From IMG/VR virus record IMGVR_UViG_3300025913_000019: a stretch of DNA of 64,000 nucleotides; one strand, written 5' to 3'. How positions within the stretch are numbered: position 1 is the stretch's first letter; every line of letters begins with the position of its first letter. This document shows positions 3,763 to 39,506 of this stretch, in pieces. The notes under the pieces were generated by a model. That model was not told the origin of the DNA, did no database searches, and was given only the letters and a program-made list of their open reading frames with translations. The translations under genes were made by a program, and so were the position numbers. This DNA comes from a virus (Duplodnaviria; Caudoviricetes).

Positions 3763-4254
3763 GTGTTCAGACTCCCGAGCGACCTCCGCGTCGCCTACGT
3801 CCTCGGTGCTCGCATCGAGCTTCGCTTCTCGAAGAAGATGGGCGGCGTCCGACAAGAACAAGTCGGCGTCTGGCTCTCGGCACGTGACTGGGGCGCCGTC
3901 AGCGACTGCGAGTTCCGTGTCCATCCCGAAGACCAGGAACTGCTCGTGGCCGCACGCTGCGCCATCAACAAGACGAAGCTGTGCTTCTACTTCAAGTCGC
4001 CGCGGCACACGGAGGACGAGGATCGCCCCTGCCGGTACGCTGTACCGGCGCATGTGATCGGCACGGACACGCCGGTTCTCGCGCCCTACGGCATGGGCAC
4101 GTTCGTCGTCATCGACCGCGACCTCAATGCCACGGAGCTGGCCTACGCGGCGTTGCGTGGGCCACTTGGCGACAAGACCAAGAACGACATCGAGTTCGAT
4201 CGCCTGGCGAAGACGGCCTACGTCCTGGCCGAGAAGGCCGACGAAGACGCCTGA
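3763..4254 (+). CDS. Hypothetical protein (start ambiguous, see finding)
   Basis: GTG directly follows an in-frame TGA. Confidence 0.65.
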   Translation: MFRLPSDLRVAYVLGARIELRFSKKMGGVRQEQVGVWLSARDWGAVSDCEFRVHPEDQELLVAARCAINKTKLCFYFKSPRHTEDEDRPCRYAVPAHVIGTDTPVLAPYGMGTFVVIDRDLNATELAYAALRGPLGDKTKNDIEFDRLAKTAYVLAEKADEDA

Positions 4255-34941: not shown

Positions 34942-35127
34942 ATGAGTCGTTCGTACTACCACCGTCGCCATCGTCAATACTGGCGCACTCCGCATTACTG
35001 GATCACGCTGAACAACACCAAGCCCTGGCGTCAGGCGACTCGTCGCTTCTGTCAGGACCTGGTCAAGGGTCGTCGTGAGCTGGATGATGTGGAGCCGGTG
35101 GTTCAGCCCCTGCCCTACTGGGACTGA
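34942..35127 (+). CDS. Small basic/aromatic protein
   Basis: SD GGAG. Confidence 0.55.
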   Translation: MSRSYYHRRHRQYWRTPHYWITLNNTKPWRQATRRFCQDLVKGRRELDDVEPVVQPLPYWD

Positions 35128-35129
35128 GA

Positions 35130-35138
35130 ACTGTAAAG
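35130..35138 (+). promoter_or_regulatory. Candidate phage promoter motif ACTGTAAAG
   Basis: Intergenic, heads the RNA island. Confidence 0.6.
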
Positions 35139-35291
35139 AAGGAGTACAAGGGCTTCGGCCCCCGTCAACAGGATAGCACCTGGCGAAACGGATGATGAAC
35201 ACGGCAAGCTGAACGTGCGAGTTGAGAAACGCACGGGCAGTTTTCGGGTAGCCACTCCCGATTCTTCATCAACGCCGTTAGGAGCTACACC

Positions 35292-35696
35292 ATGATCGCA
35301 TCGCAACAACCCCTGAACCTGACCGTCAACGTCTCCGGCTTCGTGCCGGTGGATGTGACCCTGCAACCGCTGCCGAGCCCCGCGACCAGTTCCGTGGCTG
35401 CGCCGGCGGTCATCAAGGAAGACGTGGTCCGTCGTGTCAACCTGCGGGACTTCATGTTCAAGCAGGTGGGCAAGTTCGTGACCATCGACTTCGTCAAGAA
35501 CGACGGCACCGACCGTATGCTGAACGGTCGCCTTGGAGTGCGGAAGCACCTGAAGGGCGGCGACAGCACGTTGGCCGATGCCGACAAGCCGTACTTGGTG
35601 GTCTATGACATGAAGGCGAAGGGTTACCGGGCAGTCAACCTGGAGACCGTGAAGGAAGTGCGTGCTCAACGGACGCGCTACACCGTGATCGGCTGA
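35292..35696 (+). CDS. SH3-barrel/WYL-like protein
   Basis: FVTIDFVKNDGTDRMLNGRLG..LVVYDMKAKGYRAVNLETV. Confidence 0.65.
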   Translation: MIASQQPLNLTVNVSGFVPVDVTLQPLPSPATSSVAAPAVIKEDVVRRVNLRDFMFKQVGKFVTIDFVKNDGTDRMLNGRLGVRKHLKGGDSTLADADKPYLVVYDMKAKGYRAVNLETVKEVRAQRTRYTVIG

Positions 35697-35784
35697 TGGA
35701 ATTCCTGTAGGTGAGTAAGCCTGGACCCTCCCTAGCTTATTCGCGCGCACAGGCGGTGGGACTATTGCGAAGGTCCCAACCCCT

Positions 35785-35860
35785 GCTGTCTTAGCTCAGT
35801 TGGTAGAGCATCTGCCTTGTAAGCAGGAGGTCAAGGGTTCGAGTCCTTTAGGCAGCACCA
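35785..35860 (+). tRNA. tRNA-Thr(UGU)
   Basis: 76-nt canonical cloverleaf, loop CTTGTAA, GGTTCGAGTCC, encoded ACCA. Confidence 0.96.
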
Positions 35861-35879
35861 AACAACAAGAGGAGCCACT

Positions 35880-36308
35880 ATGTGGACGTGGAAGAGTGAA
35901 CTGAAGCGCTTCGGCGCAATCGTCGTGGTCGCAGCCGTCGGCATTGTCCTGATGGCCTCGACCACGAAGGCCAAGGCCACCGGCTACATGTACGGCGTGC
36001 CTCCGGGCGTCAAGGTCGACCACGATGTGAGCGGCGCCTTCGACGACACGGTCACGTTCGTGAGCCCGGCAACGGGCATCTACAACGTGACGTTCGAGGC
36101 CACGGACCTCCGTCCCATCAAGGTCGCAACCAAGTTCAAGATGGTGCAGCTGTCGACGACCCTCAAGGACGGCCGGCAGTTCTACAACATCACGCACAAC
36201 CCGGATGCCGCGATCTACGCAGAGCGCGGGCAGGTGTGGACCATCCGCTTCATCGGCACCTCGGCGGAACGCGGCGGCTCCTATTCGCTGCTGATCGATC
36301 CGCAGTAA
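35880..36308 (+). CDS. Secreted beta-sandwich-like protein with FxDx(F/V)-type motif
   Basis: Signal/TM N-terminus; VSGAFDDTVTF; no PEP-CTERM tail. Confidence 0.6.
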   Translation: MWTWKSELKRFGAIVVVAAVGIVLMASTTKAKATGYMYGVPPGVKVDHDVSGAFDDTVTFVSPATGIYNVTFEATDLRPIKVATKFKMVQLSTTLKDGRQFYNITHNPDAAIYAERGQVWTIRFIGTSAERGGSYSLLIDPQ

Positions 36309-36339
36309 GACAAAGGCTGTGCCCGCTGCAGTCCTGGAG

Positions 36340-36519
36340 TCCTAGGCTCCAAAACCCTTCGGGGTAATAGCGGGAGACCGGGAGGCATGCCTCCCGGCAC
36401 CTATTCCGGGGGTGTCCAATGGGGGCCGCTAGTAGGGCGGGGCAAGGTACGAGACGCTGACGCGTTGCTTCCGAGCCCTGTGGCCAAACGCGCCAGGTTC
36501 GAATCCTGGAACCCGACCA
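36340..36519 (+). ncRNA. Structured RNA ending in T-arm plus ACCA (tRNA-like 3' end, no canonical cloverleaf)
   Basis: CCAGG-TTCGAAT-CCTGG-AACCCG-A-CCA; upstream hairpins. Confidence 0.5.
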
Positions 36520-36523
36520 ACCC

Positions 36524-36654
36524 GAGTGCAGAGCTACGGGCCGAGGACCATGGGCCGTAATGGCGGTCACCGAGAACAAGCGGGAAGAAGTTGGTCACCT
36601 GACGGAGACCAGACCGGCGATGCTTGCGCGGCCTCGGTTCGTAGCTCTGCACTC
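36524..36654 (+). ncRNA. Unknown RNA closed by a 23-bp stem
   Basis: 36524-36546 pairs with 36632-36654 (21 WC + 2 GU). Confidence 0.6.
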
Positions 36655-36686
36655 TTGTCCCCCAACCACAAACGAAGGTTCACCAC

Positions 36687-37067
36687 ATGAAGATCAAGCC
36701 CCGCAACGAGCACGTCGTCGTTCGCCGCATCCCCAGCCGTGAGAAGAGCAGCGGCATCATCATCCCGGGCCAGGAAACCGAGCGCGATCTCTTCGCCGTC
36801 ACCGCGGTGGGCCCCGGCGGCTTCACACCGGCCGGCACGCGTGCACCCATCGAGCTCGACGTCGGTCAGCCGATCGTTCCCGGCATGCTCGTCTTCGTCC
36901 GCCCCGGCGACTACGAGATGTTCGACTCGGACCCGAACAGCCCGGGCGACGAAAGCCTGCGCATGGTGATCCCGCAGTCGGCCATCATCGGCGTCGAGGT
37001 CGACGACAACGACCAGCCGCTGATGTTCGCCGAGCCCGCGCAGTCGATGATCGCGACCCTCAACTGA
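36687..37067 (+). CDS. groES: GroES-like co-chaperonin
   Basis: MKIKPRNEHVVVRR..SSGIIIPG..AVTAVGPG. Confidence 0.85.
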   Translation: MKIKPRNEHVVVRRIPSREKSSGIIIPGQETERDLFAVTAVGPGGFTPAGTRAPIELDVGQPIVPGMLVFVRPGDYEMFDSDPNSPGDESLRMVIPQSAIIGVEVDDNDQPLMFAEPAQSMIATLN

Positions 37068-37080
37068 CCAAGGAGCTGCC

Positions 37081-37380
37081 ATGAGCACAACCTGGAAGGA
37101 CGCGCTGGCGGACAAGCCGAGCGTCATCGATTTCGTGCAATCCATCGTCGACCAAGTTCCGACCACGGGCGGCGCCCAGGACGCATTCGAGATGGCGCTC
37201 AACGGCCTGGCGACCTTCGTGCCCGAAGAGATCCAGATCAAGGCCGACAAGTTCGACGCGCTGGTCGACGAAGGCGTCGACGAGTGGGCCGGCTACGAGT
37301 CCGCCATGGCCGAGTTCGAGGACGAGGACGGCGATGACGACTCAGATTCGGACGACGGCGACGAAGACGACGAGGACTGA
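37081..37380 (+). CDS. Small acidic protein
   Basis: SD AAGGAG; D/E tail. Confidence 0.7.
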   Translation: MSTTWKDALADKPSVIDFVQSIVDQVPTTGGAQDAFEMALNGLATFVPEEIQIKADKFDALVDEGVDEWAGYESAMAEFEDEDGDDDSDSDDGDEDDED

Positions 37381-37382
37381 CC

Positions 37383-37661
37383 ATGGGCTGGCGCTCGTGG
37401 TTCGGCCTCAAGGAGCCGGTCCGGTTCATGGATGAGAGCGACGAGAAGGTTCGTGGCGCCCTCACCCTGCTGTCCCAGCTCGGTAGCAACAACGTCCACT
37501 GGAACGACGTGGACGTGATGGCGACGGCGAAGGCCGCGCTGTTCGAGGAACCCAGGTACGCACGCGCGGGCCTGGAACGCATCGCTGCCGCGGTGTCGCC
37601 CGGTGATCTCTTCATCAACGGAGTTGACATCGGCCTCCTGGCCGAGCGCGGCTTGCAATGA
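37383..37661 (+). CDS. Hypothetical protein
   Basis: Coupled start. Confidence 0.6.
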   Translation: MGWRSWFGLKEPVRFMDESDEKVRGALTLLSQLGSNNVHWNDVDVMATAKAALFEEPRYARAGLERIAAAVSPGDLFINGVDIGLLAERGLQ

Positions 37662-37668
37662 GCAACGA

Positions 37669-37708
37669 AGGTACCCGGCACCTGGTTCGATCCCAGGGCC
37701 CGGTATCT
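37669..37708 (+). ncRNA. T-loop-capped minihelix
   Basis: AGGTACC/GGTATCT + GGC/GCC + CCTGG-TTCGATC-CCAGG. Confidence 0.35.
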
Positions 37709-37717
37709 CCGGCAGGG

Positions 37718-37832
37718 TGGAGAGTGACGAAATTGGTAGACGTGCTGCCTTGGCAAGGGTGGTGCCCCTCGGGTCTCGGCCGCCAACTGAGACAATGAGG
37801 ACCGCGTGCTGGTTCGAGTCCAGCCTCTCCAT
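37718..37832 (+). tRNA. Non-canonical type-II tRNA-like gene (GGC loop, about 43-nt variable arm, no encoded CCA)
   Basis: TGGAGAG/CTCTCCA acceptor, Leu-type D arm ACG-AAATTGGTAGA-CGT, T arm GCTGG-TTCGAGT-CCAGC. Confidence 0.6.
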
Positions 37833-37841
37833 TTCTCCGAA

Positions 37842-37850
37842 ACGGTAAAG
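37842..37850 (+). promoter_or_regulatory. Candidate phage promoter motif ACGGTAAAG
   Basis: Intergenic, before structured region. Confidence 0.55.
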
Positions 37851-37857
37851 AAGTAAC

Positions 37858-38075
37858 ATCGCGTTGCAGCGATAGGGCAAGCTGATCGTGCCCTGGTTTG
37901 CGCCTGACCAAATTCGGCGTTCGCGCTCGTAGTGGTCGGCCGTAGTTGACATGTGCCTGGCATGTCTGCGCCTAAGCACTCTGTGCACAGATTAGAGGCC
38001 CGCCGGGTTGGTTGCAGATCCTTGCCGGCGGCCACCTACATGTAGCTTGCGTGCCAGACACGCGAGCCTGATTCC
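37858..38075 (+). ncRNA. Candidate structured RNA
   Basis: Non-coding gap with several stems (37858-73, 37874-94, 37957-64/38050-57, 37997-38033). Confidence 0.4.
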
Positions 38076-38099
38076 CCAACCACAGCCTAGGAGCTGAAG

Positions 38100-38252
38100 A
38101 TGAAGAAGACCCTGTTCTCCGCCGCACTGCTGATCGCGGTCGCCCTCGGTGGCGTCGCCATGGCCCAGGATTCGACGCCGGACGGCTGCATGCCCGGCAA
38201 CGGCGGCTCGGCCCCCATCTGCACCCCGGGCACGGGCCCCGGCGGCAAGTAA
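38100..38252 (+). CDS. 50-aa secreted peptide with two Cys (missing from ORF track)
   Basis: SD AGGAG; MKKTLFSAALLIAVALGGVAMA|QDSTPDGCMPGNGGSAPICTPGTGPGGK. Confidence 0.7.
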   Translation: MKKTLFSAALLIAVALGGVAMAQDSTPDGCMPGNGGSAPICTPGTGPGGK

Positions 38253-38299
38253 AGATCAACGCAGCGAGGGCGAAAGAAGAGTCACCCGCAGTTGCAGTG

Positions 38300-38760
38300 A
38301 GAAGTCCCGCCTCCCCAGGGACGACGTAGTGTCCGAGCAATCGGGCGTGTGTCAAACCATAGGGAACATGGTCGTGTGTCGGCACTCGCCGACGAGAGTC
38401 TGAAGCTGACGGATGTTGGACGGGGGTTCGATTCCCCCCGGCTCCACCACTAGCGCCTGCGTACATGCGGGTGCTAGTGATGGGGCCGACCAGGTTTCGA
38501 CAGCGTTGCTGATGTGGAGGACGACGACTCGCGCGTATGGCCTAGTCTAGCTCAGCGTTACAGAGCCGACAGGGTACAAAACTAACTGCCAACGACGAGC
38601 AATTCGCTCAGGCCCTCGCGGCCTAAGCGCAGAACAGCTGCGGGTTCTACCTAGGCAACTAGGTGTGTACGCAGCCGGGCCGGACACAGCGGATAACCTC
38701 TGCTGTGTGTCTGAGTAAGCCGGGGCCGCAAGGTCCAGGTTAGGGACGGTGGGCTTCGGC
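38300..38760 (+). ncRNA. ssrA: Circularly permuted two-piece tmRNA (outer ends uncertain)
   Basis: Acceptor half ends CGGCTCCACCA at 38449; 5' half GGGGCCG starts 38482; G3-U70; tag ANDEQFAQALAA* at 38588-38626. Confidence 0.92.
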
Positions 38761-38805
38761 TCTCTGCTCCCGAACGTCCGGCCCACCCCTAACAATGAGG
38801 CATCG

Positions 38806-39201
38806 ATGACTGAACTGAAGACCGCACCGGTGGACACGGCCTACGCCGAGATGCAGGCCTACGTCGCCAAGTTGGAAGCCGCCGGCGTCAAGAGCGACAA
38901 CGGCTGGTACCCGATCATGACGGCTCCGTGGGAGATCGAGATCATGATCGGCCGCTGGCAGACGATCGGCAACAAGGAGCCGCAGTTCATCACCTGCAAG
39001 TCGAGCCAGGAGCACGACCCGGGCAACGAGTTCGAGGGCGAAGCCGCCTACGACTACTGGGCGACCGATGACGACACAGCAGGCGTGGTCGACTCGGCGA
39101 TGCCTGATGTCTGGCGTCCCATCTTTCCCCAGCCTGCGTTCATCAACACCTACGAAGACCAGCTGGCCGAACAGGCCGCGGCTGCCGAGGGAGAAGGCTG
39201 A
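38806..39201 (+). CDS. Hypothetical acidic protein
   Basis: SD GAGG; start refined. Confidence 0.7.
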   Translation: MTELKTAPVDTAYAEMQAYVAKLEAAGVKSDNGWYPIMTAPWEIEIMIGRWQTIGNKEPQFITCKSSQEHDPGNEFEGEAAYDYWATDDDTAGVVDSAMPDVWRPIFPQPAFINTYEDQLAEQAAAAEGEG

Positions 39202-39449
39202 TGGGAGTCGTCGTGTTTCCTGGCCACGAAGGTTCGGCGCTCGAAGCTCTGGCAAAGGCGAAGACCGCGGTCGACGAGATCGGCCCGGATGCACGGATCT
39301 TCATCTTCGTCCGCGATCCGAAGAAGCAGGCCACGCGCTCTCTGAGTTCGGAGTTCAATACCATCGATCTCGCAGTCGTGACCGCCTACGTCAACGCATA
39401 TTGCTCGGATCACATGATGCGAGCGCAGGGCGAGGACGGCGACGATTAG
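39201..39449 (+). CDS. Hypothetical protein
   Basis: TGATG overlap. Confidence 0.65.
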   Translation: MGVVVFPGHEGSALEALAKAKTAVDEIGPDARIFIFVRDPKKQATRSLSSEFNTIDLAVVTAYVNAYCSDHMMRAQGEDGDD

Positions 39450-39506
39450 TACAACGAGCCCCGGGTCGAGCAGTCGATGCCGGGGCTACCCATTTCTGGA
39501 GCACAC

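What the first reader, a model, noticed from the sequence alone, without database searches (positions are those of the whole stretch)
36524..36654. 131-nt RNA closed by an uninterrupted 23-bp helix
Seen: GAGTGCAGAGCTACGGGCCGAGG pairs with CCTCGGTTCGTAGCTCTGCACTC (two GU wobbles, suggesting RNA-level selection). It encloses 85 nt with inner stems (GGCGGTC/GACCGGC, TGGTC/GACCA) and a purine-rich loop AACAAGCGGGAAGAAG. It starts 4 nt after the CCA of the preceding element. It lacks SRP and RNase P consensus motifs; the shape is reminiscent of 6S or Y RNA or an RNase III substrate.
Basis: partly seen in the sequence, partly recalled or inferred. Interest (0 to 1): 0.6.

Follow-up and report, generated by a model that had tools for sequence, protein, structure and literature searches.

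The report
Orphan long-stem hairpin before phage GroES
A large soil phage has a 131-base stretch whose ends pair into an unbroken 23-base-pair stem, lying between a tRNA-like remnant and a chaperone gene; the stem is real and far beyond chance, but no relatives were found, and it is more likely a transcript-processing hairpin than a 6S- or Y-type regulatory RNA.

Summary
Window 36524-36654 (+) folds into one hairpin closed by 23 contiguous pairs (21 Watson-Crick, 2 adjacent G.U), MFE -76 kcal/mol, z -7.1. It is the only stem of this quality in about 121 kb of this phage.

The 85-nt interior is not significantly structured (z -0.8) and is non-coding (GC3 0.53 against 0.87-0.91 in nearby genes). 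Rfam gives nothing: no 6S, Y, SRP or RNase P.

The window is a phiRSL1/BcepSauron-type jumbo phage. The hairpin starts 4 nt after the ACCA of a tRNA-like remnant and ends 32 nt before a GroES-like gene, with no promoter or terminator in between.

I found no homologue, so covariation could not be tested. I searched 35 related phage records, IMG/VR, GenBank phages, plasmids, and GroES-anchored scans of metagenomes and GTDB genomes. The two relatives that keep GroES lack the hairpin.

Relatives do carry unrelated hairpins of the same shape directly 3' of tRNA-type genes. One is the excised spacer of a two-piece tmRNA.

Best reading (about 45%): a transcribed spacer hairpin cut by host RNase III, separating the tRNA-like RNA from the GroES mRNA. 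Rivals: a neutral inverted-repeat relic, or a discrete stable RNA.

The parts
36495..36519 (+). T-arm (CCAGG-TTCGAAT-CCTGG), acceptor 3' strand and ACCA tail of the upstream tRNA-like remnant. It is not called as a tRNA by ARAGORN or Rfam.
   Evidence: Sequence; no tRNA call here. The T-arm resembles the intact tRNA-Pro of relative G002.
36520..36523 (+). 4-nt spacer ACCC between ACCA and the hairpin
36524..36546 (+). 5' arm of the 23-bp closing helix
36547..36631 (+). 85-nt interior. The fold is ambiguous. It holds a purine-rich run at 36572-36590 and a small apical hairpin, TGGTC...GACCA, at 36592-36610. It is not significantly structured on its own.
   Evidence: z -0.84. The embedded ORF has GC3 0.53 against 0.87-0.91 in real genes.
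36632..36654 (+). 3' arm of the closing helix. It is followed by CTTGTCCCCC, with no U-tract.
   Evidence: no terminator predicted here
36661..36670 (+). CCCAACCACA leader motif, 26 nt before the GroES ATG. An identical copy lies 26 nt before the ATG of the secreted-peptide gene at 38101.
   Evidence: 8 hits at <=1 mismatch against 2.9 expected; 2 exact
36674..36678 (+). GAAGG Shine-Dalgarno of the GroES-like gene. It lies outside the hairpin and is not sequestered.
   Evidence: full intergenic fold
36687..37067 (+). GroES-like co-chaperonin gene (126 aa), the first gene downstream of the hairpin
   Evidence: Pfam Cpn10 E 2.4e-7; homologues P0002-P0004

Best explanation
The hairpin is a transcribed spacer inside a polycistronic precursor: WYL-like gene, tRNA-Thr, 142-aa secreted protein, folded RNA plus tRNA-like remnant, HAIRPIN, GroES-like gene. 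Its 23 bp of unbroken dsRNA make it a likely substrate for the host's RNase III. A double-strand cut in the stem would do three things. It would free the upstream tRNA-like RNA with a short 3' trailer that exonucleases can trim back to ACCA. It would release an upper hairpin of roughly 100 nt. It would also give the GroES mRNA a defined 5' end about 40 nt before its start codon. If the stem is bound but not cut, it would sit 4 nt from the new 5' end left by tRNA-type 3' processing and act as a 5'-terminal protective stem-loop. Shown: the helix, its uniqueness, its position, the absence of a promoter or terminator between it and GroES, and its non-coding status. Inferred: transcription through it, RNase III cleavage, and the effects on the two neighbouring RNAs.
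For: The stem is 23 contiguous pairs, z -7.1, which is the two helical turns that bacterial RNase III needs (established knowledge). It is the only such stem in about 121 kb of this phage. All local genes are on the + strand, and the G.U pairs favour that strand. No sigma-70-like promoter and no terminator lie between the hairpin and GroES, and the nearest GTAAAGA promoter-like motif upstream is at 35132, so GroES can only be expressed by transcription through the hairpin. The SD and ATG lie outside the fold. Hairpins of the same shape recur in related phages directly 3' of tRNA-type genes. In G002 one lies between the CCA end and the 5' end of a two-piece tmRNA, a segment known to be excised. 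In G006 one starts 11 nt after a tRNA. In G009 one starts 43 nt after the tmRNA and ends 17 nt before an ATG. That is 4 of about 15 strong long stems in 730 kb falling in about 0.1% of the sequence. Precedent: Correia elements (26-bp inverted repeats enclosing about 105-155 bp) form mRNA hairpins in 5' leaders of a betaproteobacterium, and RNase III cleaves or binds them (PMC2649163).
Against: There is no transcript data of any kind. No homologue was found, so there is no covariation and no evidence of purifying selection. The two relatives that keep GroES (G002, G009) express it without any such hairpin, so it is not needed for GroES as such. The analogous hairpins in relatives share no sequence with it (local alignment p>0.1; shared 7-mers not collinear), so the class is defined by shape and position only. 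RNase III antideterminants were not evaluated. No phage RNase III gene was found in the 91 kb searched, so cleavage would depend on an unidentified host.
Confidence: 0.45

Rival explanations
1. It is a relic of a DNA-level event: a MITE-like insertion, or an inverted duplication made during the rearrangement that truncated tRNA-Pro. It has no selected RNA function. It is transcribed and perhaps cut only as a side effect.
For: The only exceptional feature is a near-perfect terminal inverted repeat; the interior is not structured beyond chance. The element is lineage-specific, since the whole intergenic block differs from G002 at the same place. It abuts a tRNA 3' fragment, a typical scar of recombination. 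A 6-nt direct repeat, CCAACC, lies 1 nt before and 7 nt after the element. Size and arm length match Correia-type MITEs.
Against: It is single-copy. There is no second copy in about 121 kb of this phage, in 35 related records, in IMG/VR by its arms or its loop, in GenBank phages or in plasmids. There is no clean target-site duplication abutting the arms. Both arm differences keep pairing on the transcribed strand. Hairpins of the same shape recur next to tRNA-type genes in relatives far more often than chance.
Confidence: 0.27
2. It is a discrete, stable, trans-acting small RNA excised from the precursor, analogous to T4 RNAC/RNAD or to a 6S/Y-type protein-binding RNA. The purine-rich bulge would be the business end.
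For: It lies in an RNA island with tRNA, tRNA-like RNAs and a two-piece tmRNA. A long closing stem protects the ends of many stable RNAs. The purine-rich single-stranded run contains GGA motifs. T4 encodes small RNAs in its tRNA region whose functions are still unknown (PMC9697503).
Against: No Rfam family matches at E<=10. The interior fold is not significant and differs between predictions. There is no conservation anywhere. No antisense target for the loop exists in the window. No Ro60/TROVE gene is present in 91 kb. It has no promoter or terminator of its own.
Confidence: 0.13
3. It is a DNA-level site, such as a protein-binding inverted repeat, a CIRCE-like heat-shock operator in front of groES, or an origin or cruciform.
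For: It sits directly upstream of a groES-type gene. The outer 9 nt of each arm (GAGTGCAGA / TCTGCACTC) match CIRCE half-sites at 7 of 9 positions. Relative G004 has a perfect 23-bp inverted repeat around an AT-rich, iteron-like interior that looks DNA-level.
Against: The half-sites are everted and 113 nt apart, not 9 nt. No CIRCE (<=3 mismatches) exists in the window. The interior is GC-rich and has no iterons. GroES in relatives has no such repeat.
Confidence: 0.05

Closest known systems
RNase III processing hairpins in phage and bacterial polycistronic transcripts (T7 early-region R sites; rRNA-operon processing stems)
   Same: An intergenic stem of about two helical turns, transcribed with its neighbours, lying a few tens of nt upstream of the next start codon and next to stable-RNA genes.
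   Different: T7 sites have an internal loop and are cut once, and there are about ten per genome (own knowledge). This one is a single unbroken 23-bp helix with an 85-nt cap. Cleavage is untested.
Correia repeat enclosed elements (CREE/nemis) of Neisseria, and ERIC-type MITEs
   Same: 26-bp terminal inverted repeats enclose an element of about 105-155 bp in total. They often sit in 5' leaders, fold as mRNA hairpins, and are bound or cleaved by RNase III. The host is a betaproteobacterium, and one copy lies in a prophage (PMC2649163).
   Different: CREE are present in more than 100 copies with TA target duplication and a conserved core. This element is single-copy, has no abutting duplication and shows no sequence similarity to them.
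Intervening segment of two-piece (permuted) tmRNA genes
   Same: A hairpin that starts right after a ...CCA 3' end and is removed during maturation. Relative G002 has one of almost the same geometry: a 16-21 bp stem with 93-103 nt inside.
   Different: In those genes the far side of the hairpin is the 5' acceptor strand of the coding piece. Here it is an mRNA leader, and no sequence complementary to the acceptor strand follows.
T4 RNAC and RNAD (species 1 and 2 RNAs)
   Same: Small non-tRNA RNAs encoded in a phage tRNA region, with function still unknown (PMC9697503).
   Different: No sequence or Rfam link. That this hairpin exists as a discrete stable RNA has not been shown.
5'-terminal stabilising stem-loops (ompA-type leaders)
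   Same: After 3' processing of the tRNA-like RNA, the stem would lie within 4 nt of the new 5' end of the GroES mRNA.
   Different: Known stabilisers are short hairpins. A 23-bp helix would itself attract RNase III.

Membership tests
6S RNA (Rfam RF00013 and relatives) | Match to the covariance model | tested here: not met
   No 6S hit at the gathering score or at E<=10 on 35600-39000
6S RNA (Rfam RF00013 and relatives) | Large two-sided central bubble between a closing stem and a terminal stem | tested here: not met
   The predicted interior has a one-sided purine-rich bulge and varies between folds
Y RNA / bacterial YrlA | Match to the covariance model, with a Ro-binding helix | tested here: not met
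   No Y_RNA or YrlA hit at E<=10
Y RNA / bacterial YrlA | Ro60/Rsr (TROVE) partner gene | tested here: inconclusive
   No PF05731 match in G001 (91 kb, about 39% of the genome). The rest of the genome and the host were not searchable.
RNase III substrate | About 20 bp or more of uninterrupted dsRNA in a transcribed region | tested here: met
   23 contiguous pairs. The hairpin lies between co-oriented genes with no promoter or terminator in between.
RNase III substrate | Actual cleavage; absence of antideterminant base pairs | not testable with these tools
   Needs an enzyme assay or end mapping
MITE (Correia/ERIC type) | Terminal inverted repeats enclosing a short non-coding core | tested here: met
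   23-nt arms and an 85-nt core with GC3 0.53
MITE (Correia/ERIC type) | Multiple copies in a genome or across genomes | tested here: not met
   Single copy only. Host genomes could not be searched.
MITE (Correia/ERIC type) | Target-site duplication abutting the repeats | tested here: inconclusive
   ACCC and TTGT abut the arms. A CCAACC direct repeat lies 1 nt and 7 nt away.
Intervening segment of a two-piece tmRNA / permuted tRNA-type gene | The hairpin is flanked by the 3' acceptor strand plus CCA on one side and the complementary 5' acceptor strand on the other | tested here: not met
   The upstream side is met (ACCA at 36516-36519). The downstream sequence TTGTCCCCCAACC has no complement to AACCCGA.
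Intrinsic terminator | Stem followed by a U-tract | tested here: not met
   The stem is followed by CUUGUCCCCC, and the scan finds none here
CIRCE/HrcA operator | TTAGCACTC-N9-GAGTGCTAA | tested here: not met
   No match with <=3 mismatches in the window. The arm ends resemble half-sites but are everted and 113 nt apart.

The most novel reading that the evidence does not exclude
phiRSL1-like jumbo phages may share an unrecognised class of 110-300-nt RNAs closed by a long stem and placed directly 3' of tRNA-type genes. These RNAs would have been replaced in sequence repeatedly while keeping their shape and position. Once excised they could persist as stable dsRNA-ended hairpins with a job of their own, for example titrating RNase III or another dsRNA-binding host factor, or chaperoning maturation of the adjacent tRNA mimic. 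The window's hairpin would be one member.
Probability: 0.12. Interest if true: 0.6.

Novelty: new member of a known kind. Interest (0 to 1): 0.3.

Why it matters
If it is cut by RNase III, this hairpin marks where a jumbo phage separates a tRNA mimic from a chaperone mRNA made on one transcript. That would be a small but concrete handle on how the RNA islands of these phages are processed. The wider pattern, in which unrelated long-stem hairpins abut tRNA-type genes in four related phages, suggests a rule of architecture worth testing. As it stands, the element is an orphan with no evidence of conservation, so its value is mainly as an annotation and as a cheap experimental target.

Tried and rejected
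- Rfam at the gathering score and at E<=10: no family over the hairpin.
- Homologue hunts, all negative or self only:
  - blastn against GenBank phages and plasmids.
  - Exact loop 19-mer and paired-arm pattern in IMG/VR.
  - Single-sequence covariance model R1 against 35 related records. With filters off on four RNA islands, only shape-alike stems scored, at 12-13 bits, E about 0.3.
  - GroES-anchored scans of IMG/VR, metagenomes and GTDB genomes. Scan anchored on the upstream gene.
- A 21-nt match to the 5' arm in G016/G017 proved to be coding sequence.
- AGAACAA...CGGGAA is shared with the G004 hairpin, but the alignment is not significant (p 0.155), although the motif is otherwise rare.
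- 7-mers shared with the G006 element are not collinear.
- A 46-codon ORF ending in ATGA on the GroES start was rejected: GC3 is 0.53, and its SD is 3 nt from the ATG and buried in the stem.
- CIRCE, a terminator or sigma-70 promoter, an antisense target of the loop, and RNase III or Ro60 genes in G001: none found.
- Downstream genes of the analogous hairpins are unrelated to one another.
- BcepSauron and Motura have GroES but no comparable hairpin.

Full report
**What is there.** Window 36524-36654 on the + strand has two 23-nt arms, 36524-36546 and 36632-36654, that pair without interruption. There are 21 Watson-Crick pairs and two adjacent G.U pairs. The 131-nt stretch folds at -76 kcal/mol against -46.8 +/- 4.1 for dinucleotide shuffles, z -7.1.

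I enumerated every contiguous stem (G.U allowed, loop 30-270 nt) on both strands. This is the only stem of 20 bp or more with 2 or fewer G.U in the window and in the overlapping 91-kb IMG/VR twin G001, together about 121 kb of one phage. From base composition I estimate 1e-2 to 1e-4 such stems per window by chance.

On the - strand the two G.U become C.A, and the longest run drops to 15. That strand still folds at -68 kcal/mol, z -6.65. The 85-nt interior alone is not better folded than shuffles (z -0.84), and its predicted pairing changes between runs. A 46-codon ORF that starts inside the hairpin and ends in ATGA on the GroES start has GC3 0.53, against 0.87-0.91 for neighbouring genes, so it is not coding. 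The exceptional feature is therefore the closing helix and nothing else.

**Context.**
- The window belongs to a high-GC jumbo phage. Its large terminase is 54% identical to Ralstonia phage phiRSL1 and about 50% to Burkholderia phages BCSR5 and BcepSauron. The longest contig carrying its GroES is 212 kb.
- Local genes are all on the + strand.
- The hairpin lies in a 378-nt gap between a 142-aa ORF (35880-36308) and a GroES-like gene (36687-37067; Cpn10).
- It starts 4 nt after ...CCTGGAACCCGACCA, which is the T-arm and ACCA tail of a tRNA-like remnant that neither ARAGORN nor Rfam calls.
- It ends 32 nt before the GroES ATG. The SD (GAAGG) is outside the fold.
- No sigma-70-like promoter is predicted anywhere in 35000-39500, and no terminator is predicted at or after the hairpin. 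The nearest upstream copy of the recurrent GTAAAGA motif is at 35132.
- GroES must therefore be transcribed through the hairpin. This is an inference from sequence; there are no transcript data.
- A tRNA-Thr (35785-35860) and a permuted, beta-type tmRNA (38357-38717) lie close by.

**Known families.** Rfam 15 gives no hit over the hairpin at the gathering score or at E<=10. That covers 6S, Y/YrlA, SRP, RNase P and riboswitches. No TROVE/Ro60 or RNase III gene is present in G001, but this record is only about 39% of the genome. The stem is not followed by a U-tract. CIRCE, the inverted-repeat operator of groES operons, is absent. The arm ends look like CIRCE half-sites at 7 of 9 positions, but they are everted and 113 nt apart.

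**Homologues.** None was found.
- Near-identical copies in two other assemblies (G001, and Ga0207674 = L005) are uninformative: there are no differences in the hairpin.
- blastn against GenBank phages and plasmids gave nothing.
- Exact-pattern scans of IMG/VR with the loop 19-mer and with both arms returned only the phage itself.
- An alignment of terminases found 58 related IMG/VR contigs.
- A covariance model of the hairpin (R1) found nothing at E<=1 in 31 of these records plus phiRSL1, BCSR5, BcepSauron and Motura.
- GroES-anchored scans of IMG/VR, metagenomes and GTDB genomes reached only two relatives that keep this GroES.
- G002 (terminase 71%) has the same gene order, secreted protein then GroES, but a small ORF in place of the RNA block. 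Homology with our GroES leader starts at about the CCACAACCA motif, right where our hairpin ends.
- G009 (68%) has coding sequence running up to its GroES.

**Analogues by shape and position.** The RNA islands of relatives contain unrelated long-stem hairpins of similar geometry.
- G002: the intervening segment of the two-piece tmRNA is a 135-nt hairpin that starts at the acceptor-piece 3' end. It has 21-nt arms, 90% complementary (16 contiguous pairs), enclosing about 93-103 nt.
- G006: a 292-nt element closed by 18 bp starts 11 nt after a tRNA and ends in U7.
- G009: a 150-nt hairpin (17-22 bp stem, z -6.9) starts 43 nt after the tmRNA and ends 17 nt before an ATG.
- G004: a 115-nt hairpin (17-21 bp, z -6.0) starts just after a CTGTAAAT promoter-like motif and ends 38 nt before an ATG.

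With filters off, model R1 ranks exactly these elements first, at 12-13 bits, through the stem alone.

Across 730 kb of nine records there are about 15 distinct strong long stems. Four of them, counting ours, begin within 45 nt after a tRNA-type 3' end, a target that covers about 0.1% of the sequence. This enrichment was defined after I had seen the cases, so it should be treated as a lead. It is large all the same.

None of these hairpins shares significant sequence with ours, and their downstream genes are unrelated. One G004 inverted repeat, perfect over 23 bp and with an AT-rich, iteron-like interior, looks like a DNA-level element. It is a warning against reading every such repeat as RNA.

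**Mechanism.** Bacterial RNase III needs about two turns of dsRNA (established knowledge). This helix offers 23 unbroken pairs inside an obligatory transcript. The most economical reading is a processing spacer. A cut in the stem would separate the tRNA-like RNA from the GroES mRNA, give exonucleases access to trim the former back to ACCA, and set the 5' end of the latter. If the stem is bound but not cut, it would lie 4 nt from the 5' end left by tRNA-type processing and would protect the mRNA.

The closest documented parallel is the Correia element of Neisseria. It has 26-bp inverted repeats enclosing about 105-155 bp, is often found in 5' leaders, and forms mRNA hairpins that RNase III cleaves or protects (PMC2649163). 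The excised spacer of two-piece tmRNA genes is the closest parallel within this phage clade. T4 RNAC and RNAD show that phage tRNA regions can encode small RNAs whose function is still unknown (PMC9697503).

**Rivals.**
- A neutral relic of rearrangement or a MITE-like insertion. This fits the featureless interior, the lineage-specific block and the neighbouring tRNA fragment. It is weakened by single-copy status and by the recurrence of such hairpins next to tRNA-type genes.
- A discrete trans-acting RNA. No positive evidence supports it.
- A DNA-level operator or origin. This is unlikely on geometry and composition.

**Verdict.** The 6S/Y reading is not supported, and the RNase III reading is plausible but untested. 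The element is an orphan, and I file it as a new member of a known kind: an RNase III-type intergenic or leader hairpin. Interest is modest.

Noticed in passing
window 36661-36670 and 38075-38084: An identical CCCAACCACA motif lies exactly 26 nt upstream of the ATG of both the GroES-like gene and the small secreted-peptide gene (38101). Each copy is preceded within 4-6 nt by a hairpin. G002's GroES leader has CCACAACCAAC at the same place. It may be a shared leader or translation element.
   Followed up: partly
window 35132, 37844, 38249, 41756, 43327; L104:7261-7268 and 3763-3770: A recurrent GTAAAGA (window) or CTGTAAAT (G004) motif occurs in intergenic positions shortly before genes or RNAs. 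It is probably a phage promoter core. I did not test it beyond counting.
   Followed up: partly
L104:3520-3760 (G004 79520-79760): A perfect 23-bp inverted repeat is nested in a longer imperfect palindrome. Its AT-rich interior is made of CTTTCGACTTTT-like repeats. It looks like a DNA-level element, such as an origin or a protein-binding array, rather than an RNA.
   Followed up: no
L107:6480-6870 (G006 72479-72870): A tRNA (ARAGORN: Ile, anticodon AAT, odd position) is followed after 11 nt by a 292-nt element closed by an 18-bp stem and ending in U7 (z -4.0). It may be a tRNA-linked structured RNA with its own terminator.
   Followed up: partly
L105:8330-8775 (G002) against window 38357-38717: The two-piece tmRNA genes of related phages differ mainly in the spacer between the CCA end and the coding piece: about 28 nt in the window, about 60 nt in G009 and about 135 nt in G002. 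The tag peptide ANDEQFAQALAA is identical in the window and G002.
   Followed up: partly
window 35785-36519 against L105:5181-5354: G002 has tRNA-Thr followed 21 nt later by an intact tRNA-Pro. In the window, tRNA-Thr is followed by the 142-aa gene, and only a Pro-like T-arm plus ACCA remains. This suggests an insertion or replacement within tRNA-Pro.
   Followed up: partly
window 37081-37380: A 99-aa ORF just after GroES has a weak Pfam match to the T7 Gp5.9 RecBCD-inhibitor domain (E 1.3e-5, just above the cut-off).
   Followed up: no
window 36394 against L005: The only difference in 401 nt between the window and the Ga0207674 assembly is a C-to-T change in the 9-bp palindromic hairpin at 36380-36399. 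It turns a G-C pair into G.U.
   Followed up: no
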